Shown: one piece after another, positions 12,178 to 64,000 of the stretch
How positions within the stretch are numbered: position 1 is the first letter of the stretch
Layout: each line of letters begins with the position of its first letter
DNA from: Gemmatimonadota bacterium
Lineage (GTDB): Bacteria; Latescibacterota; UBA2968; GCA-2709665
Length of the DNA stretch: 64,000 nt
Reading direction: 5' to 3'
Assembly (NCBI GenBank): GCA_028874335.1
Contig: JAPPJY010000013.1
Location: forward strand, 6,526 to 70,525
Position numbers and translations under genes: made by a program
The notes under the pieces: generated by a model
Told to the model about the DNA's origin: nothing
Seen by the model: the letters and a program-made list of their open reading frames with translations, nothing else
Database searches by the model: none

Positions 12178-12256
12178 GATGCTCGTCTCTCTTTTCGGCT
12201 CATCGCTGACAGATGCCATAGAAAATACGCAATCCACCTTCTCTGTCAAGGATTCA

Positions 12257-12447
12257 CCTCAATTCCGCAAAAGCCGTAACGCGGCACCGCGACGAAACCT
12301 TTCGAAACGGGCCAAAATGGTCATCATGAAGCACGTTTTTTCCGTTCACGTCCAGTGTCCTGGTGTATCCTGGTAATCAGCAGTCTAATCGCCGTTATTA
12401 ACTCGCACATATTCGAACTAACATCCCCGAAAAATGACGAATCAAGG
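12257..12447 (+). mobile_element. MITE-like element, family A, copy 1
   Basis: ~90% identical by manual alignment (about 20 mismatches in ~190 nt) to 48426-48615. Imperfect TIR CCTCAATTCC...GGAATCAAGG. Flanked by the direct repeat TTCA (12253-12256 and 12448-12451). Confidence 0.85.
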
Positions 12448-13779: not shown

Positions 13780-13911
13780 GAATTCTCCTTTCGGTAATTG
13801 CTTCATTTTGCTATCTTTTCCTGCCCTTGTGGACCAAGAAGCTGTCTTAAAGACATTCCTTCATCTGCAAATAGAGCCAGTCCCGACTCCCGTTCGAAGG
13901 TTCGGCGGAAC

Positions 13912-48122: not shown

Positions 48123-48425
48123 CCCTTTACCCTCAATGAATGAGACCGCGATCGGCGGCAGCGTATGGAATCAGTCCTTGCCCGCCCTGCCCCGCCCGGC
48201 GTGATCCGGCGCCTCCTGACGCCGTCAGTGCCTGAACCGCGGGACACACAGAATATACCCAATGCTCCGGCTGAATCAACCCCGCGCAAACCCAACTTGA
48301 CATTACGGTGTTCCGTCCCATAAATTCCTCACCATTCTTGGGCCGATGTAACACAGGAACACAAACCCGGGACAGGCGGCCAATCTCCGATCCCTTACCC
48401 GTGACGGGTTTCCGGGAGGCATTAG

Positions 48426-48615
48426 CCTCAATTCCGCAAAAGCCGCAACGCGGCACCGCGACGAAACCCTTCGAAACAGGCCGAAATGGTCGTCATGAAG
48501 GACATTCTTTCAGTTCACGTACAGTGTCCCGGTGTATCCTGGTAATCAGCAGTTTAATCGCCTTTTTAACTGACACATATTCGAATTAACGTCCTCGAAA
48601 AATGAGGAATCAAGG
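48426..48615 (+). mobile_element. MITE-like element, family A, copy 2
   Basis: See copy 1. Flanked by TTAG (48422-48425) and TTAG (48616-48619). It ends 6 nt before the SDR start codon. Confidence 0.85.
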
Positions 48616-49699: not shown

Positions 49700-49733
49700 G
49701 CTGCTGAAAAAGACGTAAACCGGGCCGTGGGCA
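49624..49733 (+). promoter_or_regulatory. Attenuator alternative pairings (segments 1:2 and 2:3)
   Basis: Segment 1 GCGTGGG (49624-49630, over the first Trp codon) is complementary to CCCACGC (49687-49693). Segment 2 TGCCCACG (49685-49692) is complementary to segment 3 CGTGGGCA (49726-49733), which is the 5' arm of the terminator. Confidence 0.65.
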
Positions 49734-49753
49734 TCTGCTCACGGTTTTTTTTT
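49725..49753 (+). terminator. Attenuator terminator (3:4 hairpin + T9) 34 nt upstream of trpE
   Basis: CCGTGGGC-ATCT-GCTCACGG (8 bp including one G-T pair) followed by nine T (49745-49753). Confidence 0.8.
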
Positions 49754-49786
49754 GATTCGGCCGACTCAGGACGCCGGTACCGCGAA

Positions 49787-51304
49787 ATGGCGGCACAACC
49801 GGCCAACTGCCTGGTGAAACTCGTGAACACACCCGATTTGGAGACGACAAAAACGTTGGCCAGGGACCGGGGAATCGTTCCGATCTCCCGCGAAATCCTG
49901 GGGGATACGGAAACCCCGGTTTCCGCCTATTTGAAGCTGCGGCCCGGGAGTCCCTACAGCTTTCTCTTCGAAAGCGTGGAAGGAGGCGAGAAGATCGGCC
50001 GTTATTCCTTCCTGGGCGTGGAGCCGTTCCTTGCCTTTCGGTCGTGGAAATCCCGGATTGAGATAGAGGATCTGAAGCGGGGCGGCGTGAGGGCGTTCGA
50101 GGGATCGCCCATCGCCGAGCTCAGGCGTCTGCTGGGGAAATACCGTTCGGCGCAGCTGGAGGGGCTGCCCCGGTTTACCGGCGGAGCCGTGGGTTACGTG
50201 TCCTACGATGCAATCCGGCTGGTTGAGAACATCCCGGACCGGACGCGCGACGACCACGGTCTGCCCGACGTCGTATTACTCTTCTACGATACGCTACTTG
50301 GCTTCGACAACGTCAGGCAGAAGATCCATCTGATATCCAACGTGCATACCGATGGAGATATCGAGCGGAATTACCGGGAGGCGAAAGCGCGAATCGATGC
50401 GCTGGAAACGGCATTGCGGGGGCCGATTCCCGCCAATGGCGTCCCGGCGGAAACGTCCCGCAGCCGCGCGAGCGAAATCCGGTCGAACACGGAACGGTCG
50501 GTTTTTCTGGACAAGGTGCGCCGCTGCAAGGAATACATCGTCGCGGGCGATATTTTCCAGGTTGTACTCTCGCAGCGCTTCGAGACCGAGATTACCGTGG
50601 GATCTCTGGACATATACCGTGCGCTGCGCACGGTGAATCCGTCGCCGTACATGTTTCATCTGGACCTCAGGGACGTGCAACTCGTAGGCGCGTCGCCGGA
50701 ACTGCTGGTGCGTGTCGAAAACGGCGTCGTGCAGGTGCGTCCCATTGCGGGCACACGCTGGAGAGGGGCTACGGAAGAAGAGGATTCCACCCTCGCGGCG
50801 GACCTGCTGGCGGACGAAAAGGAACGTGCGGAGCATATAATGCTGCTGGACCTGGGTCGGAACGACGTCGGTCGGGTATCCAGATACGATACCGTACGTG
50901 TGACCGAACAGATGGCAATTGAGCGTTATTCTCACGTGATGCATATCGTCTCGAACGTTCGGGGTCGCCTCAGGGACGGCGTGGATGCACTGGATGCGCT
51001 GTATGCCTGTTATCCGGCAGGTACGGTTTCCGGCGCGCCCAAGATCCGGGCGATGGAAATTATCGACGAACTGGAGCCGACCCGCCGCGGGCCTTATTCG
51101 GGGGCCGTGGGTTATATAGATTTTTCGGGCAATATGGATACGTGCATCGCCATACGTACGATGGTGCTGCAGGGACGGAGAGCGTACGTCCAGGCCGGCG
51201 GTGGGATTGTGTTCGATTCCGTACCGGAAAACGAACACCTGGAAACGGTAAATAAAGCGAAGGCGCTGTTCAGGGCGGTGGAACTGGCGGAGGGTGCGGT
51301 TTAG
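49787..51304 (+). CDS. trpE: Anthranilate synthase component I
   Basis: 505 aa from Met 49787. LGDTETPVSAY, ...GAVGY.SYD, AGTVSGAPK, GPYSGAVGY, conserved chorismate-binding domain. Confidence 0.95.
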   Translation: MAAQPANCLVKLVNTPDLETTKTLARDRGIVPISREILGDTETPVSAYLKLRPGSPYSFLFESVEGGEKIGRYSFLGVEPFLAFRSWKSRIEIEDLKRGGVRAFEGSPIAELRRLLGKYRSAQLEGLPRFTGGAVGYVSYDAIRLVENIPDRTRDDHGLPDVVLLFYDTLLGFDNVRQKIHLISNVHTDGDIERNYREAKARIDALETALRGPIPANGVPAETSRSRASEIRSNTERSVFLDKVRRCKEYIVAGDIFQVVLSQRFETEITVGSLDIYRALRTVNPSPYMFHLDLRDVQLVGASPELLVRVENGVVQVRPIAGTRWRGATEEEDSTLAADLLADEKERAEHIMLLDLGRNDVGRVSRYDTVRVTEQMAIERYSHVMHIVSNVRGRLRDGVDALDALYACYPAGTVSGAPKIRAMEIIDELEPTRRGPYSGAVGYIDFSGNMDTCIAIRTMVLQGRRAYVQAGGGIVFDSVPENEHLETVNKAKALFRAVELAEGAV

Positions 51305-54442: not shown

Positions 54443-55705
54443 GTGGACATCTTGAAAGATCTGGATTTTCGGGGGTACCTCTTTCAGGTAACCGATCCCG
54501 ACGGACTCGAAGCGCGGCTGGCCGGCGGGCCCATAACGCTTTATTCAGGGTTCGACCCCACGGCCGACAGTTTGCACGTGGGCAACCTGATACCCATTCT
54601 CGGATTGCGGCGGTTTCAACTGGCCGGGCATCATGCGATCGGGCTTATCGGGGGAGGCACGGGTCTGATAGGCGATCCGAGCGGCAGCAAGGAAGAACGT
54701 CCGTTGAACCCGCCCGAGTTGATCGCGGAATATACGGGAAGACTCGCAGAGCAACTCGCCAGGTTTCTCGATTTTGAGACCGGAGCCAATCCCGCCCGGG
54801 TGGTCAGCAATCTGGGATGGCTCTCCGAACTGAAGGCGATCGACTTCCTGAGGGACACGGGCAAGCACTTCTCCATGGGCTATATGCTGGCGAAAGAGTC
54901 CGTGGCTTCCCGGCTGGAAACCGGAATCTCATTCACCGAGTTCAGCTATATGGTCATTCAGGCCTATGATTTCATGGAGTTGTTTCAGGCGCACGGATGC
55001 GAGCTCCAGATTGGCGGGAGCGATCAATGGGGCAATATTACAGCGGGAATCGAACTGATCCGGCGCCGGCTGGGCGGACAGGCGCACGGCCTGACGTTTC
55101 CACTGCTTGAGAAGGCAGACGGCTCCAAGTTCGGAAAGACGGCATCCGGCACCGTCTGGCTCGACGCTGGAAAAACGACGCCCTACCAGTTTTACCAGCA
55201 TTGGATCAATACGGACGACCGGGACGTCGTGTCGTTTCTGAAGCTGTTTACCTTTCTCTCCGGGAATGAAATCAGGAATCTGGAAACGGAAGTGACAGAA
55301 CATCCCGAAAAGCGAGAGGCGCAGCGGGTGCTGGCCGAGGAAGTCACCACGCTCGTACATGACAGATCCGCCACCGAAAGGGCGCGGCGGATTTCCGACG
55401 CGTTGTTCTACGGGGAACTGAGGGACCTGAGTGCGCGAGAGATCGAGGAAGGGTTCAGCGACGTGCCGTCTCAGGCGCTCAATGGCGTTTCAGGCGTGGG
55501 ACTGATGGATCTGCTGGTCAACGTCGGCATTTCATCTTCCATGCGCCAGGCGCGGGAAGATATCCGGTCCGGCGCGATATACGTCAATGGCCGGCGTTGC
55601 GCCGATACGGGCATGATGCTTGAACCCTCGGACAGAATCGCCGGCAGATACGTGGTCGTGCGCCGGGGCAAACGCCGCTACTTTCTCGTGCGCTGGAATC
55701 TCTGA
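54443..55705 (+). CDS. tyrS: Tyrosine--tRNA ligase
   Basis: GTG start. GFDPTADSLHVGNL (HIGH), KFGKTASG (KMSKS-like), C-terminal S4 domain. Confidence 0.95.
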   Translation: MDILKDLDFRGYLFQVTDPDGLEARLAGGPITLYSGFDPTADSLHVGNLIPILGLRRFQLAGHHAIGLIGGGTGLIGDPSGSKEERPLNPPELIAEYTGRLAEQLARFLDFETGANPARVVSNLGWLSELKAIDFLRDTGKHFSMGYMLAKESVASRLETGISFTEFSYMVIQAYDFMELFQAHGCELQIGGSDQWGNITAGIELIRRRLGGQAHGLTFPLLEKADGSKFGKTASGTVWLDAGKTTPYQFYQHWINTDDRDVVSFLKLFTFLSGNEIRNLETEVTEHPEKREAQRVLAEEVTTLVHDRSATERARRISDALFYGELRDLSAREIEEGFSDVPSQALNGVSGVGLMDLLVNVGISSSMRQAREDIRSGAIYVNGRRCADTGMMLEPSDRIAGRYVVVRRGKRRYFLVRWNL

Positions 55706-55711
55706 CCTGAG

Positions 55712-55793
55712 AAGCTGTCTTTAAATTCCCCGCGGTCTTCGCGCGGCTGCGAAAGCGGCGGTCGGGAACTCACCGGTAATTTTAAAACAGCTT
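55712..55793 (+). mobile_element. MITE-like element, family B, copy 1 (internal-deletion derivative)
   Basis: AAGCTGTCTTTAAATTCCCCGCGG...GGTAATTTTAAAACAGCTT. It contains only the two ends of the 186-nt copy at 59413-59598. Flanked by the perfect 5-bp direct repeat CTGAG (55707-55711 and 55794-55798). Confidence 0.9.
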
Positions 55794-55888: not shown

Positions 55889-56866
55889 ATGAAAGCACCC
55901 TGGATCACCTATCGGCCGGAACTCAAGGTATTGGACTGTACGATTCGAGACGGCGGATTGATGAACGACCACCAGTTTTCCAATGATTTCGTAAAGGCCG
56001 TTTATGAGACCTGCGTCGACGCGGGCGTCGACTATATGGAAATCGGGTACCGGAACTCCAAAGAGATGTTTCCGAAAAAGCAATTCGGAGCCTTCCGGCA
56101 CAGCGACGAAGAAGATATCCGCAGGATCACGGGGGACCACGACCCTGAAACCACCGGCCTGAAGCTTGCCATCATGGCCGATGCCGGCAAAAGCGACTGG
56201 GCGGAAGATATCCTGCCGGCCAGCGAAAGCGTGGTCAGCATGGTACGGGTGGCCTGCTACGTCGAGCAGATTCCCGAGACCGTTGAAATGCTCTGCGACG
56301 CCCACGAGAAAGGATATGAAACCAGCTGCAACATCATGGCCATTTCGACCGTGCAGGAAGTGGAGATCGATCAGGCGCTGGAGGTCCTTGTCGAAACGCC
56401 GGTGGGTACAATATGTGTCGTCGACAGCTTCGGCGCATTGTACCGCGAGCAGGTGGATATGCTCATCCGGAAGTATATGGATGCCGTCGAAGGAATGGGA
56501 AAGGAAGTGGGCATTCACGCGCACAACAACCAGCAACTGGCATTCGCCAATACCATCGAAGCGCTTATCCTGGGCGCCAACCGCGTTGATGCCACGGTGG
56601 ACGGACTTGGCCGCGGCGCCGGGAATTGCCCGCTCGAACTGCTGCTCGGCTTCCTTCGCAATCCAAAATTCAAGATTCGACCCGTCTACAAGCTGCTGGA
56701 AGCCCACTTTGTCGGATTGCGCGAGCAATTGACGTGGGGGCCTCTGGTGCCGTACAACATCACGGGACAGCACAACCAGCATCCCCGCTCGGCGATGGCG
56801 CTTCTGGACGGGGACGACCGCGACCGCTATCTGGCGTTCTACGATCAGGTGATGAGGGATATCTAG
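55889..56866 (+). CDS. DRE-TIM metallolyase (HMGL-like/pyruvate carboxyltransferase-domain aldolase), function unknown
   Basis: AGGAGAGGA precedes the ATG at 55889. [10 protein letters not shown]..., [32 protein letters not shown] are HMGL-like metal-binding motifs. Its stop TAG overlaps the trpB GTG (TAGTG). Confidence 0.8.
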
Positions 56867-58313: not shown

Positions 58314-59126
58314 ATGACGAGGATCGGGAGACGGTTCGAAGCGTTGAAGAAAGCGGGAACGACCGGGTTCGTCGCCTATATCACGGCCGGAGACCCGGAT
58401 ATGGCAACCACCCGGAAATTCGTACCGGAGCTGGAAAGGCGCGGGGTGGACATACTTGAGCTGGGCGTTCCGTTCTCCGATCCGCTGGCGGACGGACCTG
58501 AGATCCAGGCGGCCTCGCAGCGGGCGCTGAGGCATCGCGTTTCCATCGGCGACGTCATGGACCTGGTGGCGGTTCTGCGGCAGGAGTCCGAGATACCCAT
58601 TGTCCTGTTTACGTATTTCAATCCGATGCACCGCTTCGGTCTCAAACGGCTTGTCGACAGAGCGGCCGAAGCGGGGGTGGACGGCATTCTGGCGCTGGAT
58701 CTTCCACCGGAAGAGGCGGGGGAGTACAAGGGTCTGATGGAGAAACGGGGACTGGATACGATTTTTCTCATCGCGCCCACCAGCCGCGAGGACCGCATTC
58801 GACGAATCGCGTCTCACACCAGCGGATTCGTGTATTACGTGTCCCGCACCGGCGTGACCGGGGAGCGGGACCGCCTGGAGGAAACACTGGGCGAAAGGGT
58901 GGCGGCAATCCGGCGACACACCTCGCAACCGGTAGCTGTCGGATTCGGGATTTCGACGCCCGAACAGTCCGGTGAGGTTGCGGGTTACGCGGATGCGGTT
59001 GTGGTTGGCAGCGCAATCGTGCGACGGATCGCACAGCGGCAGTCCGACCCGGATCTCGTTTCCCACATCGGGGATTTCGTCGAAGAACTGGTGCAACCGC
59101 TGAAGGGAGCATCCGATGGATCTTGA
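58314..59126 (+). CDS. trpA: Tryptophan synthase alpha chain
   Basis: Met 58314. FVAYITAGDPD, LELGVPFSDPLADGP, GFVYYVS..GVTG, GFGIS. Confidence 0.95.
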   Translation: MTRIGRRFEALKKAGTTGFVAYITAGDPDMATTRKFVPELERRGVDILELGVPFSDPLADGPEIQAASQRALRHRVSIGDVMDLVAVLRQESEIPIVLFTYFNPMHRFGLKRLVDRAAEAGVDGILALDLPPEEAGEYKGLMEKRGLDTIFLIAPTSREDRIRRIASHTSGFVYYVSRTGVTGERDRLEETLGERVAAIRRHTSQPVAVGFGISTPEQSGEVAGYADAVVVGSAIVRRIAQRQSDPDLVSHIGDFVEELVQPLKGASDGS

Positions 59127-59385
59127 AGACTGGCGCAGGGAAATCGACATCCTGGACCAGAAGCTGCTGGAGCTTCTGAATCGACGAGCCGAATGCGCCA
59201 TGGAAATCGGCAGGATCAAGCAGGCTATCGAACAACCGATCTTCGTGCCGGAACGTGAGAAGTCGATCCTGAACCGGATACTTGAACTGAACGAGGGGCC
59301 CACGGACGACGAGGCGGTGCGACGGATCTTTCAGCAGATCATCGATGAGTCCAGGCGCCTCATGCAGAAGAATCAGGAAAGCTAA
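59116..59385 (+). CDS. AroQ-class chorismate mutase
   Basis: AAGGGAG precedes the ATG at 59116. LEDWRREIDILDQKLLELLNRRAECAMEIGRIK......P.RE..IL is the CM type 2 helix pattern. 11-nt overlap with trpA. Confidence 0.85.
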   Translation: MDLEDWRREIDILDQKLLELLNRRAECAMEIGRIKQAIEQPIFVPEREKSILNRILELNEGPTDDEAVRRIFQQIIDESRRLMQKNQES

Positions 59386-59412: not shown

Positions 59413-59598
59413 AAGCTGTCTTAAAATTCCCAGCGGTCTTCGCACGGCTGCAAAAGCGCCGGTCGGCGTTGGGCAAATCCACCCAAGAGTGGCGAGGGGC
59501 GCGCAGCCACGATACATTGAATATGGGCGGATTCTCCCGCCTTGACCGCCGCTTTTTCGCTCGTGCTCGGGAACTCACCGGTAATATTAAAACAGCTT
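59413..59598 (+). mobile_element. MITE-like element, family B, copy 2 (full length)
   Basis: TIR AAGCTGTCTTAAAATTCC...GGTAATATTAAAACAGCTT. Flanked by the perfect 5-bp direct repeat CTTAG (59408-59412 and 59599-59603). Confidence 0.9.
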
Positions 59599-59668: not shown

Positions 59669-60697
59669 ATGGCATTCACGAAAAACATGAAGATACCCAC
59701 GCCGGAAGCCGTTCTGGACAAGATGCCGCTTCCGAAGAACCTGAAGGGTATAAAGGAGCAGCGGGATGCGGAAATCAGCGACGTCTTCGCGCGCAGGAGC
59801 CGGAAGTTTCTCCTTGTGATCGGCCCCTGCTCCGCGCACAATGAAGACGCCGTGTGTGAATACGTCTCCCGGTTGGCGAAACTGCAGGAGGCCGTCCGGG
59901 AGACGCTGATTCTCGTGCCCCGACTCTATACCAACAAACCCCGCACAACCGGCGAGGGATACAAAGGCATGGGACATCAGCCGGACCCGCGAAAGGCGCC
60001 AGACATGTCCGAGGGCATCTACGCGGTCCGTCAGATGCACATCCGGGCGGTCCGGGAATCCCACCTGACGGCGGCCGACGAAATGCTCTATCCGGGCAAT
60101 CTGCCGTACGTCGAGGACCTGCTGAGCTATATAGCCGTGGGCGCCCGGTCGGTAGAAAACCAGCAACACCGATTGACCTGCAGCGGCGTAGACGTACCCG
60201 TTGGAATGAAGAACCCGACGGGAGGAGATCTTTCGGTTATGCTGAACGCGATTCATGCCTCCCAGATCCCGCACGTCTTCATCTATAACGGCTGGGAGGT
60301 ACGCACCGACGGCAATCCCATGACGCACGCCGTGCTTCGCGGCGCCGTGGACGTAACCGGGCGCAGCATACCGAACTACCATTTCGAGGACCTCATGTAC
60401 GCGGCGGAACTGTATCGGCAGCGGCCGCTCGCCAACGCCGCGATCGTCGTGGATACGAATCACAATAACTCGGGCAAGCAGTTCAGTGAACAGCCGCGGA
60501 TCGGGTTGGAAGTGATACGCAGCCGGCAGAATTCGGCGTTCCTGAACGACATGATCCGCGGATTGATGGTGGAGAGCCATCTGGTTGAGGGGGCGCAAGA
60601 CGTCAATGACGGCGTGTACGGCAAATCCATTACCGATCCATGCCTGGGGTGGGAAGATACCGAGGCGTTCGTAAAGGAACTGGCCGAGGGGATATGA
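59669..60697 (+). CDS. aroG: 3-deoxy-7-phosphoheptulonate (DAHP) synthase, class I-alpha type
   Basis: LLVIGPCSAHN, KPRTT, GARSVENQQHR, VGMKNP, DTNHNNSGKQ, MVESHLVEGAQ, YGKSITDPCLGWEDT. The motifs match the E. coli AroG-type pattern from memory. Confidence 0.9.
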   Translation: MAFTKNMKIPTPEAVLDKMPLPKNLKGIKEQRDAEISDVFARRSRKFLLVIGPCSAHNEDAVCEYVSRLAKLQEAVRETLILVPRLYTNKPRTTGEGYKGMGHQPDPRKAPDMSEGIYAVRQMHIRAVRESHLTAADEMLYPGNLPYVEDLLSYIAVGARSVENQQHRLTCSGVDVPVGMKNPTGGDLSVMLNAIHASQIPHVFIYNGWEVRTDGNPMTHAVLRGAVDVTGRSIPNYHFEDLMYAAELYRQRPLANAAIVVDTNHNNSGKQFSEQPRIGLEVIRSRQNSAFLNDMIRGLMVESHLVEGAQDVNDGVYGKSITDPCLGWEDTEAFVKELAEGI

Positions 60698-60775: not shown

Positions 60776-61888
60776 ATGGCCAACGATCCTCCTTTTGCGC
60801 GCGATGCGATTGCAGTTGTCGGGGTGGGGCTGATTGGCGGTTCGCTCGGGCTGGCGCTCAAGGGTCTGGGCATCGGAAGTCGTATCGTCGGCATCAGCCG
60901 GCAGGAGACCCTGGACGCGGCCTTCGCGCTGGATGTTATCGACGCGGGCTATCGCTATGAGGACCTCGAATCCGGGATTCGCGATGCGGCGCTGGTTTTC
61001 CTGTGCACGCCCATCGTCCGTATTCTGGACATGCTGCCTGAGGTGCTGGGAGCGGCGCGGCAGGATGCGCTCGTGACGGATGTCGGCAGCACCAAGCATG
61101 CGATTGTCTCCACGGCGACGGCCCACGCACGGGATGGCGTGCATTTCGTCGGCGGGCACCCGATGGCCGGTTCCGAGCATCGCGGGGTGGGCGCGGCGGA
61201 CCCGTTCCTTTTTCAGAATGCGATTTATGTGTTGACGCCGTCGCCGGACACGCCCGATATCGTGGTTGAAAAGCTCGCGCGTCTCGTAAGGGCGTTCGGG
61301 GCCAGACCGATGAAGATGACGCCCCGGGAACACGACCGCGCGGCGGCGGCGGTAAGCCACCTGCCGCAGATGATGGCCACAAGCCTGGTGTCCATGGTCG
61401 GAAGGATGACGGAAGACGAAGGGCTGCCGATTCGAATGGCGGCGGGGGGGTTTCGGGACCTGACGCGCATTGCTTCCAGTCCATATGAAATGTGGCGGGA
61501 CATCTGCCATACGAACGCGGCCCCGATCCGGGAGATGATCGATCTTTATATAGAGTCGCTTTCGGCAATTCGCTCGGCCGTGGACCGCGAACGCCTGGAA
61601 CAGGCATTTGCCTATGCGAATCGAATACGCGGACAGATCCCGAAGGACTCCAAGGGATTCCTGCATCCACTGCACGAAATCCTCCTCCTGGCGGAGGACA
61701 GGCCGGGCGTGATCGCCCACGTCGCCAGGACACTGGCCGGAGAGAATATCAACATAAACGACATCGAGGTGCTGAACGTGCGCGAGGGGGAAGGGGGCAC
61801 GATTCGGATGGGGTTCGATTCACGTTCGTGCGCGGAACGAGCCGTTGACGTACTGGCGAAAGCGGGCTACAGCGTGAGATTGAGATAA
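60776..61888 (+). CDS. tyrA: Prephenate dehydrogenase with C-terminal ACT domain
   Basis: IAVVGVGLIGGSLG Rossmann motif, GGHPMAGSE, C-terminal ACT-like LLLAEDRPGVIAHVARTLAGENINI. Confidence 0.9.
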   Translation: MANDPPFARDAIAVVGVGLIGGSLGLALKGLGIGSRIVGISRQETLDAAFALDVIDAGYRYEDLESGIRDAALVFLCTPIVRILDMLPEVLGAARQDALVTDVGSTKHAIVSTATAHARDGVHFVGGHPMAGSEHRGVGAADPFLFQNAIYVLTPSPDTPDIVVEKLARLVRAFGARPMKMTPREHDRAAAAVSHLPQMMATSLVSMVGRMTEDEGLPIRMAAGGFRDLTRIASSPYEMWRDICHTNAAPIREMIDLYIESLSAIRSAVDRERLEQAFAYANRIRGQIPKDSKGFLHPLHEILLLAEDRPGVIAHVARTLAGENININDIEVLNVREGEGGTIRMGFDSRSCAERAVDVLAKAGYSVRLR

Positions 61889-61889
61889 G

Positions 61890-62048
61890 AAGCTGTTTTA
61901 AAATTCCTGGTGAGTCCCGAGCGCGAGCGAAAATGTGTCGGTCAAGGCGGGCAAAGGCGCCCATATTTGGGTATACGGGTGCTTTTGACCAACGCAGACC
62001 GACGGGTTTGCAGCCGCGCGAAGACCGCTGGGGGTTTTAAGACAGCTT
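61890..62048 (-). mobile_element. MITE-like element, family B, copy 3 (inverted)
   Basis: Aligns with the reverse complement of 59413-59598 at both ends; the centre is partly diverged or deleted. Flanks are ATAAG (61885-61889, containing the tyrA TAA stop) and CTAAA (62049-62053). Confidence 0.85.
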
Positions 62049-62131
62049 CTAAAGCGTAAGATCCGGAGACGATTGAACCGGAAAGATCGCTTTCCCTCCG
62101 CTGGCGACCGCATTATAAAGAAGGCCTCGTA

Positions 62132-63430
62132 TTGGAACTCACGGCGTCGGGAATCTCCGAAGATAGCATCAAACCATCGCCCGGGCTCAAGGGGGTTACC
62201 GACCTCCCCGGCGATGCTGAACTTTCGATAATCGCCCTCGCCCTTGCGTCCACGGCCGACGGGATTTCCGAAGTGCGCAGGTGTTCGCGAAGACGCGACG
62301 TCGAGCGAACCGGTGAGTTGCTGTCGGAACTCGGGATTATGGTGGCGCGGGACGGTGAGACCGCTACGGTAACCGGCGCGCCGTTCCGGGCGACGGACAA
62401 TGTGCTGAATGTGGACGGTTCCCTTATCCTGTTTTCCTGTCTGGCGGGATTGCTGTCGAGCGCCCCATTTGTAACGAGGCTCTCCGGGGTTCAGACGGAA
62501 GACGGCGTCGACCGGGTTGCCAAGGCGCTTCGATCGCTGGGCGCGCACGTGAATATTTCGGTTACGGACGGGATATCGGCCGGTGTTGGCGGGTCAAGGT
62601 TGGCGCCCGGATCCTACCGCGTCGGACGTCCCGACCTGGCGGTGAAATGCGGCGTACTGATGGCAGGGCTGGGTGTGGACGGGCCGGTTGAACTCCTTCA
62701 GGACACCGGCGGGGACGACGATCTGGAAGTGTTGCTCCGGGCCGCGGGATGCGATCTGAAGAAGAAGCGGATCAAGGAGGACGGAGGTTATCAGTTGTTG
62801 ATGGAAGGACCCGCGCGGCTCCGCGCCGCTACCCATGAGCTGCCGGGAAGTCCGGACGCCGGGTTGTTTCTCGCCCTGGCTGCGGCGATGCTGAATCAGT
62901 CCGATCTGACGTTAAGCCATTTCGGAATGGACTCGAGAAGCCGCAGGATCGTGGACATACTGCGCAGGATGAACGTGGCTATGGATGTGACCCATTTCCG
63001 GACGGATTCCGGTTTCCCTGCCCGGAACTTACGGATCAGGGGGTCCGACCTGCGCGGCATAAGAATCGCGGGCGCGAACGCGCGACTGATGCGGGACGTG
63101 CTCCCACTCGTGGCGGTCGCAGGCGCCGTTTCCCGGGGCGAAACCATAATTCGGGATGCCGGGGCATTGAGGAATGGACCGGTTGACTGTATTTCGGTTC
63201 TCGTGGAGAACCTGAGGAAGATGGACATTCAAGTGGGAGAGATGCCGGACGGGCTGGTTGTGAAGGGGGGACAACCTCAAGGCGACGAGCTCGATGCCGC
63301 CGGCGACGCCCGCGTGTCCATGGCGCTCCGGCTGGCAGCGCTGGCCAGCGAGGGGGACACGCTCGTCAGGAATCCCGGGCCCGTGGATCAGGGGATGATG
63401 GACCGGCTGGCGTCAGTACAGAAAGCGTAG
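62132..63430 (+). CDS. EPSP synthase-fold protein with most canonical active-site motifs substituted
   Basis: Homology to 3-phosphoshikimate 1-carboxyvinyltransferase is clear along its length (LPGD...,  LRSLGA, LPGSPDAGLFLALAAAM, GDARVSMAL). However, PGDKSISHR reads PGDAELSII, GNSGTTxR reads DGSLILFS, KVKExDR reads RNGPVDC, and DHR reads DAR. TTG start is uncertain. Confidence 0.7.
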   Translation: MELTASGISEDSIKPSPGLKGVTDLPGDAELSIIALALASTADGISEVRRCSRRRDVERTGELLSELGIMVARDGETATVTGAPFRATDNVLNVDGSLILFSCLAGLLSSAPFVTRLSGVQTEDGVDRVAKALRSLGAHVNISVTDGISAGVGGSRLAPGSYRVGRPDLAVKCGVLMAGLGVDGPVELLQDTGGDDDLEVLLRAAGCDLKKKRIKEDGGYQLLMEGPARLRAATHELPGSPDAGLFLALAAAMLNQSDLTLSHFGMDSRSRRIVDILRRMNVAMDVTHFRTDSGFPARNLRIRGSDLRGIRIAGANARLMRDVLPLVAVAGAVSRGETIIRDAGALRNGPVDCISVLVENLRKMDIQVGEMPDGLVVKGGQPQGDELDAAGDARVSMALRLAALASEGDTLVRNPGPVDQGMMDRLASVQKA

Positions 63431-63523: not shown

Positions 63524-63664
63524 ATGAGACTGGTTGTCAGGTTATTCCTTCTGGCGCTGCTGGTGTTCCTGGGAGGCGTGGTCTTCATTCGGTACACCTA
63601 CAACTGTTCGTGGAAAGAGAGTTTCGCCATTGCCGACCAGTTTGTGTCGGACCTGACCCGTTGA
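63524..63664 (+). CDS. Small single-TM protein (46 aa), hypothetical
   Basis: GAGGAGAG (63511-63518) precedes the ATG at 63524. MRLVVRLFLLALLVFLGGVVFIRYTYN... Confidence 0.4.
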   Translation: MRLVVRLFLLALLVFLGGVVFIRYTYNCSWKESFAIADQFVSDLTR

Positions 63665-63802: not shown

Positions 63803-64000
63803 TTGGGTATTGTCTCGACCACGCGATTGCTGGGCGTGATAGGCGACCCCATCGCCCACTCGTTTTCTCCGGACATGCACAATGCAGCCATAGGCGTTCT
63901 TGAGATCGATTACTGTTACGTCGCCTTTCACGTCTTGCCGGACGGGATTGAACCGGCGCTTGAAGGTATGCGCGCACTGCAGATCCGGGGATTAAACGTT
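63803..64000 (+). CDS. aroE: Shikimate dehydrogenase, 5' part (runs off the window)
   Basis: Not in the ORF track because it is open-ended. GAGGAG (63791-63796) precedes a TTG at 63803. My translation is GIVSTTRLLGVIGDPIAHSFSPDMHNAAIGVLEIDYCYVAFHV...LQIRGLNV, which matches the AroE N-terminal signature G(V/L)IG.PI.HS.SP..HN...GxNVT. Confidence 0.8.
   Translation, partial: MGIVSTTRLLGVIGDPIAHSFSPDMHNAAIGVLEIDYCYVAFHVLPDGIEPALEGMRALQIRGLNV

What the first reader, a model, noticed from the sequence alone, without database searches (positions are those of the whole stretch)
62132..63430. EPSP synthase-fold gene in the aroA position with substituted catalytic motifs (possible pseudoenzyme or divergent class)
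The protein aligns along its length with EPSP synthases as I recall the E. coli and B. subtilis sequences. Nearly every residue block that binds shikimate-3-P/PEP is changed. LPGDKSISHR becomes LPGDAELSII. GNSGTTIR becomes DGSLILFS. KRPM becomes DGVD. RDHTE becomes GDDDLE. LKVKETNR becomes LRNGPVDC. GDHR becomes GDAR. It nevertheless occupies the aroA slot of an aromatic operon between tyrA and aroE. It may be a non-catalytic paralogue, for example a regulator or scaffold. It may be an enzyme with a different substrate. Or it may be a highly divergent EPSPS class, which would matter for glyphosate-insensitivity questions.
Basis: partly seen in the sequence, partly recalled or inferred. Interest (0 to 1): 0.65.

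Follow-up and report, generated by a model that had tools for sequence, protein, structure and literature searches.

The report
Catalytically dead EPSP synthase relative
The gene in the aroA position of this Latescibacterota aromatic amino-acid operon keeps the EPSP synthase fold but has lost almost every substrate-binding residue, and it is still conserved across the phylum (cut down to half an enzyme in some lineages), so it is most likely a non-catalytic pseudoenzyme and not the target of glyphosate.

Summary
ORF 62132-63430 (+, 432 aa) is a full-length PF00275 protein (E 5e-41). It fails the aroA equivalog model (135 bits against a cut-off of 287). Of 21 catalytic or ligand-binding positions it keeps only D313 and R386.

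This is a clade, not a one-off. About 38 Latescibacterota homologues (39-100% identity) share the losses. All sit in the slot tyrA | X | 46-aa ORF | aroE of a trp/aro superoperon.

The gene is under purifying selection (dN/dS 0.21-0.34, against 0.04-0.18 for its neighbours). The former catalytic sites are now more variable than the rest of the protein.

In a nested lineage the middle lobe is cleanly excised, leaving a 215-aa single-lobe protein in the same slot. DAHPS, aroE, aroK and aroB stay intact around it. One relative (L041) has a canonical EPSPS in the same slot, so the window gene is a degenerated positional orthologue of aroA. Other Latescibacterota carry canonical aroA outside the operon.

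Best reading: a pseudoenzyme with a non-catalytic role, mainly in lobe 1. Possible partners are TyrA and/or the adjacent, highly conserved 46-aa membrane protein.

I could not determine whether the window-type genomes hold a second, canonical aroA. No description of such proteins was found in the literature.

The parts
62132..63430 (+). EPSP synthase-fold pseudoenzyme gene (432 aa, TTG start, stop at 63428-63430)
   Evidence: ORF. PF00275 E 5e-41. TIGR01356 scores 135 bits against a cut-off of 287. Only 2 of 21 catalytic sites are kept. AF2 pLDDT 92.6. Foldseek finds EPSPS structures at TM 0.80-0.85.
62201..62836 (+). Codons 24-235, lobe 2 (the middle domain). This is the part excised in the single-lobe relatives and the less constrained half.
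   Evidence: Alignment A4. Entropy is 1.35 bits against 1.11 for lobe 1, p=0.0026. dN/dS is 0.29-0.49 against 0.16-0.24 in 9 of 10 pairs.
62837..63427 (+). Codons 236-432. Together with codons 1-23 (62132-62200) they form lobe 1, the part retained in all relatives. The most conserved stretch is residues 321-400 (GETIIRD..LRxGxxDC..VENLRKM..VGEMPDG..QGxELDAxGDAR).
   Evidence: The single-lobe model has pLDDT 94.0 and matches one EPSPS lobe at TMq about 0.8.
62120..62124 (+). Shine-Dalgarno-like GAAGG, 7 nt upstream of the conserved TTG start
   Evidence: Sequence. The upstream region and the start are conserved in 8 relatives.
60776..61888 (+). tyrA (prephenate dehydrogenase with a C-terminal ACT domain). 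It is the usual upstream neighbour and a candidate partner.
   Evidence: Pfam PDH_N, PDH_C and ACT. The same order is seen in loci L002, L039, L043 and L057.
63524..63664 (+). 46-aa single-pass membrane protein MRLVVRLFLLALLVFLGGVVFIRYTYNCSWKESFAIADQFVSDLTR. It follows EPSPS or EPSPS-like genes throughout the phylum and is a candidate partner.
   Evidence: It is nearly identical in loci whose pseudo-EPSPS is only 70% identical. Homologues also follow canonical EPSPS in L040 and L041. The gap to the upstream gene is 2-5 nt in most lineages. It has no NCBIfam match.
63803..64000 (+). 5' part of aroE (shikimate dehydrogenase); it runs off the window
   Evidence: Sequence. The full gene was called in L001 with Shikimate_dh_N and SDH_C.
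61890..62048 (.). 159-nt palindromic MITE/REP-like insertion between tyrA and the pseudo-EPSPS gene. It is not part of the gene's function and explains the unusually long intergenic gap in this genome.
   Evidence: Terminal inverted repeats AAGCTGTYTTAAAA. Hairpin of -94.5 kcal/mol, z -8.2. Absent from the closest relatives.

Best explanation
The gene encodes a pseudoenzyme: a correctly folded, two-lobed EPSP synthase homologue that can no longer make EPSP. It descends in place from the operon's original aroA. A relative still has a canonical enzyme in the same slot.

It lost the cationic residues that bind shikimate-3-phosphate and PEP. It has since been kept under purifying selection for a non-catalytic role. 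That role lies mainly in lobe 1 (the N-terminal strand plus the C-terminal half), which is the only part retained in the single-lobe lineages and the more constrained half here.

The most likely role is as a binding or scaffolding subunit co-expressed with its two fixed neighbours. These are TyrA (fused to EPSPS in other phyla) and/or the 46-aa membrane protein that is tightly coupled to EPSPS genes throughout this phylum. EPSP synthesis itself must be supplied by another gene elsewhere in the genome.

Shown: fold, residue losses, clade conservation, selection, synteny and lobe excision. Inferred: lack of activity, the partner-binding role, and the existence of a separate functional aroA in this genome.
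For: - **Residue loss:** 19 of 21 catalytic or ligand positions are lost in all of about 38 clade members. Canonical controls are invariant at those positions.
- **Equivalog model:** the gene fails TIGR01356 (135 against 287.25). Canonical Latescibacterota EPSPS pass it (393-406). Other degenerate forms score 115-253.
- **Fold:** intact.
- **Sequence separation:** the clade is sharply separated from canonical EPSPS, with identity dropping from 42% to 30% or less. An exhaustive profile search finds only a few representatives at 50% identity.
- **Selection:** dN/dS is 0.21-0.34, against 0.11-0.15 for tyrA, 0.04-0.12 for DAHPS and 0.07-0.18 for trpA.
- **Former catalytic sites:** they are more variable (1.40 bits) than the rest of the protein (1.21).
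- **Lobe 1:** it is more constrained than lobe 2.
- **Single-lobe relatives:** 215-aa proteins sit in the same slot. The junction lies in the repeated PGxPD motif, and they nest next to P0017 in the tree. The model is confident (pLDDT 94) and matches one EPSPS lobe. DAHPS, tyrA, aroE, aroK and aroB are intact around the single-lobe gene.
- **Canonical EPSPS in the same slot:** seen in L041.
- **Canonical aroA outside the operon:** seen in other Latescibacterota (L040, L042, L058-60). It occurs in the same two datasets as a degenerate slot gene.
- **Chorismate is needed:** trpE, chorismate mutase and tyrA are all present.
- **TyrA link:** the best NCBIfam match is the EPSPS half of the bifunctional TyrA-EPSPS family.
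Against: - No activity or binding was measured.
- A second canonical aroA was not demonstrated for the window-type genomes. There is none in the 64-kb window or within 10 kb on each side in 37 loci.
- The partner hypothesis rests only on gene order, tight spacing and fusion precedent.
- One close relative (L046) has destroyed the gene by an internal deletion of about 306 codons, so any role is dispensable there.
- Several clade-specific invariant polar residues (R50, C51, S52, D197, H235, E337) could mark a new ligand site and not a protein interface.
- Same-dataset co-occurrence is not same-genome co-occurrence; tetranucleotide correlations are 0.70-0.82.
Confidence: 0.62

Rival explanations
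1. Repurposed cleft. The full-length protein still closes its two lobes around a ligand, but a different, less anionic one (a metal or another metabolite). It would act as a sensor or as an enzyme of new specificity.
For: Some clade-specific residues are invariant, and several of them probably face the cleft: R50-C51-S52, D196-D197-E199, H235, D322, E337, R347, D352, C353 (mostly), D392 and R394. Lobe 2 is still under purifying selection, with dN/dS 0.29-0.49. The two-lobe architecture is confidently modelled.
Against: Single-lobe descendants keep the slot and the conservation without lobe 2. They also change C353 to R and lose R394 and D322. Equivalents of the canonical ligand-contact positions are among the most variable sites. 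There is no match to any other enzyme family beyond weak MurA hits far below their cut-offs.
Confidence: 0.15
2. Slowly decaying relic. The operon's aroA became redundant after another EPSPS took over. What remains has no function of its own and persists only because deleting it would disturb expression of the downstream 46-aa ORF and aroE.
For: Selection is 2-3 times more relaxed than on neighbouring genes. There is progressive reduction: single-lobe forms, a 174-aa open stretch (stop to stop) in L028, and an internal deletion with frameshift in L046. Degeneration appears in several branches of the tree.
Against: Open reading frames are intact in more than 50 genomes and contigs, spanning divergence down to about 40% identity. 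dN/dS is well below 1 in both lobes. There are 62 invariant columns among 21 diverse members. The lobe excision is in frame and yields a confidently folding domain that is itself conserved at 72-99% identity across many genomes. Selection for translational coupling alone would not conserve the amino-acid sequence.
Confidence: 0.12
3. Highly divergent but active EPSP synthase: a new glyphosate-insensitive class that uses a different set of residues.
For: It sits in the aroA slot of an otherwise complete pathway operon. No other EPSPS-family gene was found in the sequence I could inspect. D313 and R386 equivalents are kept.
Against: The canonical cleft positions examined go from about nine basic residues (K22, R27, R100, R124, K340, R344, H385, R386, K411) to one, with R124 replaced by Asp. 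The replaced positions are not fixed within the clade. Single-lobe members nested in the clade cannot bind two substrates between lobes. Canonical EPSPS exists in the same phylum, both in the slot and elsewhere. The score is less than half the equivalog cut-off.
Confidence: 0.04

Closest known systems
Class II EPSP synthase (AroA, EC 2.5.1.19), for example Coxiella burnetii 3SLH/3TR1 and Agrobacterium CP4 2GG4
   Same: Full-length homology (E 8e-38, about 26% identity). The same two-lobe inside-out alpha/beta fold (TM 0.80-0.85). The same place in a shikimate/aromatic operon. D313, D343, D384 and R386 equivalents and the structural Gly and Pro residues are kept.
   Different: It lacks K22, S23, R27, N94, G96, T97, R100, R124, S169-Q171, K340, E341, R344, H385 and K411. 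It fails the TIGR01356 cut-off. Relatives exist as a single lobe.
Bifunctional prephenate dehydrogenase/EPSP synthase (TyrA-AroA fusion, NCBIfam PRK14806, for example Pseudomonas/Stutzerimonas, Acinetobacter)
   Same: It is the best-scoring NCBIfam model (188 bits, on its EPSPS half). The gene order tyrA then EPSPS-like matches the domain order of the fusion.
   Different: Here the two are separate genes. The score is far below the cut-off (902). The EPSPS part is catalytically degenerate.
Canonical Latescibacterota EPSPS (P0378 in the same operon slot; P0359 and P0366 outside it)
   Same: Same phylum. The same downstream 46-48-aa ORF (L040, L041). The shared motif LRKMGxxVGEMPDG. P0378 occupies the identical slot.
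   Different: These keep all catalytic residues and pass TIGR01356 (393-406 bits). They are 30% or less identical to the window protein.
Rcl1, the non-catalytic relative of RNA 3'-phosphate cyclase (RtcA). From my own knowledge, not tested here; RtcA and EPSPS/MurA are grouped in one fold superfamily.
   Same: It is a precedent for a member of this fold superfamily that lost catalysis and survives as a binding partner.
   Different: It is eukaryotic, from a different family and in a different process (ribosome biogenesis). No sequence relationship was tested.
MurA (UDP-GlcNAc enolpyruvyl transferase)
   Same: Same Pfam family and fold. Weak hits (36 bits; Foldseek TM about 0.75).
   Different: The scores are far below the cut-offs (297-393). 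The context is aromatic amino-acid genes and not cell-wall genes.

Membership tests
EPSP synthase (aroA equivalog, TIGR01356 / EC 2.5.1.19) | PF00275 enolpyruvyl-transferase fold over the full length, with two lobes | tested here: met
   PF00275 E 5.2e-41, residues 18-422. AF2 pLDDT 92.6. Foldseek TM 0.80-0.85 to EPSPS structures.
EPSP synthase (aroA equivalog, TIGR01356 / EC 2.5.1.19) | Score at or above the curated equivalog cut-off | tested here: not met
   135.1 bits against a cut-off of 287.25. Canonical Latescibacterota controls score 393-406 bits.
EPSP synthase (aroA equivalog, TIGR01356 / EC 2.5.1.19) | S3P-binding residues (K22, S23, R27, S169, S170, Q171, S197, K340; E. coli numbering) | tested here: not met
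   They are A, E, I, D, L, A, G and G in the window protein, and are also lost in all of about 38 clade members.
EPSP synthase (aroA equivalog, TIGR01356 / EC 2.5.1.19) | PEP/glyphosate-site residues (K22, N94, G96, R100, R124, D313, E341, R344, H385, R386, K411) | tested here: not met
   Only D313 (D322) and R386 (R394) are kept. The others are A, G, L, S, D, P, C, A and Q.
EPSP synthase (aroA equivalog, TIGR01356 / EC 2.5.1.19) | Genomic association with shikimate-pathway genes | tested here: met
   trpEGDCF-tyrS-HMGL-trpBA-CM-DAHPS-tyrA-[gene]-46aa-aroE, then ubiE-argS-aroK-aroB in relatives.
EPSP synthase (aroA equivalog, TIGR01356 / EC 2.5.1.19) | Catalyses S3P + PEP to EPSP + Pi; complements aroA mutants | not testable with these tools
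   This needs an enzyme assay or complementation.
Pseudoenzyme (catalytically dead homologue maintained by selection) | Clear homology to an enzyme family together with loss of the essential catalytic residues | tested here: met
Pseudoenzyme (catalytically dead homologue maintained by selection) | Intact ORF conserved across species under purifying selection, so not a pseudogene | tested here: met
   33 GTDB species, 32 of them Latescibacterota, including about 18 closed chromosomes. dN/dS 0.21-0.34. 62 invariant columns. One exception has the gene deleted.
Pseudoenzyme (catalytically dead homologue maintained by selection) | A functional enzyme for the same step is encoded elsewhere in the same genome | tested here: inconclusive
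   None in the window or within 10 kb on each side in relatives. Canonical aroA exists outside the operon in other Latescibacterota, and in the same datasets as a degenerate slot gene. No match to the closed window-type chromosomes among the hits shown.
MurA (UDP-GlcNAc 1-carboxyvinyltransferase) | Score above the family cut-off | tested here: not met
   36 bits against 297 (PRK09369) and 31.8 against 392.7 (TIGR01072).

The most novel reading that the evidence does not exclude
The window-type Latescibacterota may have no canonical EPSP synthase anywhere in their closed genomes, while keeping DAHP synthase, aroB, aroE, aroK, chorismate mutase, TrpE and TyrA. In that case EPSP would be made by a non-homologous, so far unknown enzyme, or the pathway would be bridged in some other way. 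The EPSPS-derived protein and its 46-aa membrane partner would be a leftover or regulatory module of that rewired step.
Probability: 0.07. Interest if true: 0.9.

Novelty: new variant of a known kind. Interest (0 to 1): 0.6.

Why it matters
EPSP synthase is the target of glyphosate and is treated as a universal marker of the shikimate pathway. Annotation pipelines and glyphosate-sensitivity classifiers call any PF00275/COG0128 protein in an aromatic operon 'EPSPS'. JGI names members of this clade that way.

A phylum-wide set of catalytically dead copies has three consequences:
- Pathway reconstructions and sensitivity predictions for Latescibacterota, and probably for related lineages with the other degenerate forms seen, would be wrong if they rest on this gene.
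- It adds a pseudoenzyme to a family for which my searches found none described.
- The in-frame excision of one lobe is a natural experiment. It shows that a single EPSPS lobe can be a stable, selected protein.

The tight link with a near-invariant 46-aa membrane protein points to an unstudied partner of EPSPS in this phylum.

Tried and rejected
- **Second EPSPS nearby.** I ran hmmsearch with a profile of 47 EPSPS homologues (46 canonical plus P0049, later found degenerate) against all ORFs of 80 aa or more in the window and 37 loci. It found only the slot gene in each.
- **Second EPSPS genome-wide.** I then tried to recognise genes on the same closed chromosomes by the 'longest contig' length in protein-search tables. 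The last protein search, with canonical P0210, showed no match among its 120 listed hits. This is a weak negative, because only the best 120 of 8000 are shown.
- **Names and organisms from cluster look-up.** Nothing useful.
- **Same-genome test for canonical and degenerate copies in ERZ27236675 and SRR26701722.** Tetranucleotide correlations were 0.70-0.82, suggestive only.
- **RNA elements.** Rfam and tRNA scans of the window found nothing. The long tyrA-to-gene spacer is therefore not a riboswitch or T-box but a MITE-like insertion.
- **Literature.** I found no paper on EPSPS pseudoenzymes or on the Latescibacteria shikimate pathway. Leino et al. list 'unclassified' EPSPS, but the passages I read do not discuss dead copies.
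- **Proteins of 333-377 aa.** I took them for a possible short family. They are canonical EPSPS with truncated N-termini.
- **Mapping conserved residues in 3D.** Model coordinates are not exposed, so this could not be done.
Full report
**1. Observation**

The window has an ORF at 62132..63430 on the + strand, 432 aa, starting with TTG. The TTG and an upstream GAAGG are conserved in relatives.

- Pfam gives a single full-length match to PF00275 EPSP_synthase (E 5.2e-41, residues 18-422).
- NCBIfam's aroA equivalog TIGR01356 scores 135.1 bits against a curated cut-off of 287.25.
- The best NCBIfam model is the EPSPS half of the bifunctional TyrA-EPSPS family PRK14806 (188 bits).
- The closest solved structures are class II EPSP synthases, with Coxiella 3tr1/3slh at E about 1e-37.

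I aligned the protein with E. coli AroA. My recalled E. coli sequence proved identical to PDB 1g6s. I then tabulated 21 catalytic or ligand-binding positions. The window protein has K22A, S23E, R27I, N94G, G96L, T97I, R100S, R124D, S169D, S170L, Q171A, S197G, K340G, E341P, R344C, H385A and K411Q. Only D313 and R386 survive. Canonical controls in the same alignments keep the whole core set.

An AlphaFold2 model built on a 50-sequence alignment is confident (pLDDT 92.6, pTM 0.90). It superposes on EPSPS structures at TM 0.80-0.85.

**2. It is a conserved clade in Candidatus Latescibacterota**

A search of 5.8 billion proteins found 22 clusters at 42-100% identity. Identity then drops sharply to canonical EPSPS at 30% or less.

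A scan of one genome per GTDB species found the gene in 32 Latescibacterota species, about 18 of them closed chromosomes. The closest is OZ242180.1, at 94% amino-acid identity. Some records are labelled Gemmatimonadota by NCBI.

All members share the residue losses. The 21-sequence alignment has 62 invariant columns. An exhaustive HMMER search of 1.84 billion cluster representatives with the clade profile returned only four representatives of the clade itself. After those came a mix of canonical EPSPS and other partly or fully degenerate EPSPS-like proteins: P0209, P0213, P0215, P0217, P0220, P0222 and P0224.

**3. Context**

The window carries the following genes in order:

| Gene | Coordinates |
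|---|---|
| trpE | 49727-51304 |
| trpG, trpD, trpC, trpF | follow trpE |
| tyrS | 54443-55705 |
| HMGL-like gene | 55889-56866 |
| trpB, trpA | follow the HMGL-like gene |
| chorismate mutase | 59116-59385 |
| DAHP synthase | 59669-60697 |
| tyrA | 60776-61888 |
| the EPSPS-like gene | 62132-63430 |
| 46-aa ORF | 63524-63664 |
| aroE | from 63803 |

In a closed relative the operon continues with ubiE-type methyltransferase, argS, aroK and aroB. The organism therefore encodes several enzymes that consume chorismate, and several that produce the precursor of the EPSPS step.

A profile of 47 EPSPS homologues (46 canonical plus P0049, later found degenerate) found no second EPSPS-family ORF in the window or within 10 kb on each side in 37 related loci.

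**4. Selection**

| Gene | Pairwise Nei-Gojobori dN/dS to eight relatives |
|---|---|
| EPSPS-like gene | 0.21-0.34 |
| tyrA | 0.11-0.15 |
| DAHP synthase | 0.04-0.12 |
| trpA | 0.07-0.18 |

The protein is under purifying selection, but two to three times more relaxed than its neighbours.

Within the clade, the former catalytic positions are more variable (mean entropy 1.40 bits) than the rest of the protein (1.21). They are invariant in real EPSPS. This argues against a new fixed catalytic set at those positions.

Lobe 1 (residues 1-23 plus 236-432) is more conserved than lobe 2 (residues 24-235). Entropy is 1.11 against 1.35 bits (p=0.0026). dN/dS is 0.16-0.24 against 0.29-0.49 in nine of ten pairs.

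**5. Single-lobe relatives**

In nine other Latescibacterota species, most of them closed chromosomes, the slot after tyrA holds a gene of only about 215 aa.

Alignment shows the N-terminal strand (…GLVGECEVPGD) joined directly to what is residue 236 onward of the window protein. The junction lies inside a PGxPD motif that occurs at both places in full-length proteins such as P0017. This is an in-frame excision of the whole middle lobe.

- The form is a family of its own: P0070-P0085 at 72-99% identity, with a second type in P0097, P0098 and P0100.
- It folds confidently (pLDDT 94.0, pTM 0.91).
- It matches one lobe of EPSPS at TMq about 0.8.
- In a neighbour-joining tree of lobe-1 columns it nests inside the pseudo-clade next to P0017.
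- Around it, DAHP synthase, tyrA, aroE, aroK and aroB are intact.

Half an EPSPS cannot form the interdomain active site. In those genomes the slot gene is therefore certainly not the pathway's EPSPS, yet the pathway is kept.

**6. Origin and the whereabouts of a real aroA**

The last protein search used the canonical protein closest to the clade profile, P0210. It retrieved EPSPS that NCBI names as Candidatus Latescibacterota or Latescibacteria. All of them keep the catalytic residues and pass TIGR01356 at 393-406 bits. Their contexts are informative:

- **P0378 (L041):** it sits in the same superoperon slot, followed by a 48-aa ORF, aroE, ubiE, argS, aroC and aroK. The window gene is therefore the positional orthologue of a genuine aroA that degenerated in place.
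- **P0359 (L040):** it lies outside the operon between uvrC and rsmB, still followed by a 46-aa ORF.
- **P0366 and P0371:** they lie next to pyruvate kinase.

A further degenerate protein, P0383 (K22R, R27Q, N94D, G96A, R100Q and others; 253 bits), occupies the slot tyrA-X-46aa-aroE. In the tree it is sister to canonical P0210 and P0359. Another degenerate protein, P0049, is in the same slot in a high-GC genome. These points suggest degeneration happened more than once.

P0383 occurs in the same ENA assembly as canonical P0366 (ERZ27236675) and in the same sequencing run as canonical P0371 (SRR26701722). Tetranucleotide correlations of 0.70-0.82 are compatible with one genome but do not prove it.

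For the window-type genomes themselves I could not show a second aroA. None of the 120 hits listed lies on a contig of the length of the closed chromosomes that carry the pseudo-gene.

**7. Dispensability**

One contig from a close relative (L046) has the identical 46-aa ORF. Its EPSPS-like gene, however, is reduced to residues 1-87 joined out of frame to residues 393-429. Whatever the protein does, it has been lost at least once. Alternatively, this single Logan contig is mis-assembled.

**8. Mechanism**

*Shown.* The gene is a folded EPSPS homologue without the substrate-binding residues. It is conserved, selected and syntenic. Lobe 1 is the constrained and sufficient part.

*Inferred.* It does not make EPSP. 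Another gene does. The retained role is non-catalytic.

The most economical candidates for that role are its two constant neighbours.

- **TyrA.** It is fused to EPSPS in Proteobacteria, and that fused family is the window protein's best NCBIfam match.
- **The 46-aa membrane protein.** It is far more conserved than the pseudo-enzyme itself, differing at 1 of 46 residues where the pseudo-enzyme is 70% identical. In most lineages it starts 2-5 nt after the stop of the EPSPS or EPSPS-like gene, canonical L041 included. It travels with canonical EPSPS even outside the operon.

I therefore propose that EPSPS in this phylum already had a lobe-1-mediated association, and that this association is what selection now preserves. 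This part is a hypothesis only.

**9. Rivals**

- A remodelled ligand-binding cleft is possible, because several clade-specific residues are invariant. The single-lobe forms do not keep them.
- A functionless relic is contradicted by dN/dS well below 1 over deep divergence, and by the in-frame, conserved single-lobe form.
- An active, divergent EPSPS class is very unlikely, for the reasons in sections 1, 4 and 5.

**10. Novelty**

Full-text searches found no description of an EPSPS pseudoenzyme or of this feature in Latescibacteria. The EPSPS classification paper has an 'unclassified' bin, and the passages I read do not discuss dead copies.

I rate this a new variant of a known kind: a known fold and family, in a non-catalytic, phylum-wide form not previously described, with a single-lobe derivative.

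**Caveats**

- All functional statements are inferred from sequence.
- The tree is neighbour-joining on 212 columns.
- The structural models used alignments that include canonical EPSPS.

Noticed in passing
window 63524-63664 (+): A 46-aa ORF (one N-terminal transmembrane helix plus the motif FIRYTYxCSW(K/R)ESFxIADxFV). It is nearly invariant across genomes whose neighbouring pseudo-EPSPS is only 70% identical. Homologues follow both degenerate and canonical EPSPS genes in Latescibacterota, usually 2-5 nt after the stop. It has no family match.
   Followed up: partly
window 55712-55793, 59413-59598, 61890-62048 (half-site at 13839): A family of palindromic MITE/REP-like elements with 14-nt terminal inverted repeats AAGCTGTYTTAAAA and variable interiors (82, 186 and 159 nt). 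They sit in three intergenic gaps of the aromatic operon. There are 7 terminal matches against 0.01 expected. The copy at 61890 folds into a single hairpin (-94.5 kcal/mol, z -8.2) and is absent from the closest relatives.
   Followed up: partly
window 55889-56866 (+): An HMGL-like (DRE-TIM) gene of 325 aa lies inside the trp/aro superoperon between tyrS and trpB. Its best hits are to 4-hydroxy-2-oxovalerate aldolase models, but far below their cut-offs (125 against 229 bits). It is conserved at this position in relatives (L002). Its role in an aromatic operon is unexplained.
   Followed up: no
window 54443-55705 (tyrS); argS in L002 13619-15322: Two aminoacyl-tRNA synthetase genes (tyrS and argS) are embedded in the aromatic amino-acid superoperon. 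The arrangement is conserved across Latescibacterota loci.
   Followed up: no
L046 3526-3896: In one close relative the pseudo-EPSPS is reduced to residues 1-87 joined out of frame to residues 393-429 (a deletion of about 306 codons). tyrA, the identical 46-aa ORF and aroE are intact.
   Followed up: yes
proteins P0209, P0213, P0215, P0217, P0220, P0222, P0224, P0381, P0383, P0049 (loci L043, L044, L057): There are further, separate lineages of partly or fully degenerate EPSPS-like proteins. Several carry a 30-40-aa charged insertion shared with canonical P0210 and P0359. At least two (P0383 and P0049) lie in the same slot, tyrA-X-46aa-aroE. Degeneration of the operon's aroA seems recurrent.
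   Followed up: partly
window 12252-12396 and 48421-48565: A 145-nt direct repeat (90% identical) in two intergenic regions 36 kb apart. It has no significant hairpin (z -0.7) and is unrelated to the MITE-like family.
   Followed up: partly
L028 9968-10489: In one closed Latescibacterota chromosome (OZ240239.1) the slot holds only a 174-aa stop-to-stop stretch covering the last part of lobe 1. It may be a further truncated or decaying copy.
   Followed up: no
L041 6553-7568: In the relative with a canonical slot EPSPS, DAHP synthase is called as two adjacent ORFs (141 and 173 aa). This may be a frameshift or a split gene.
   Followed up: no
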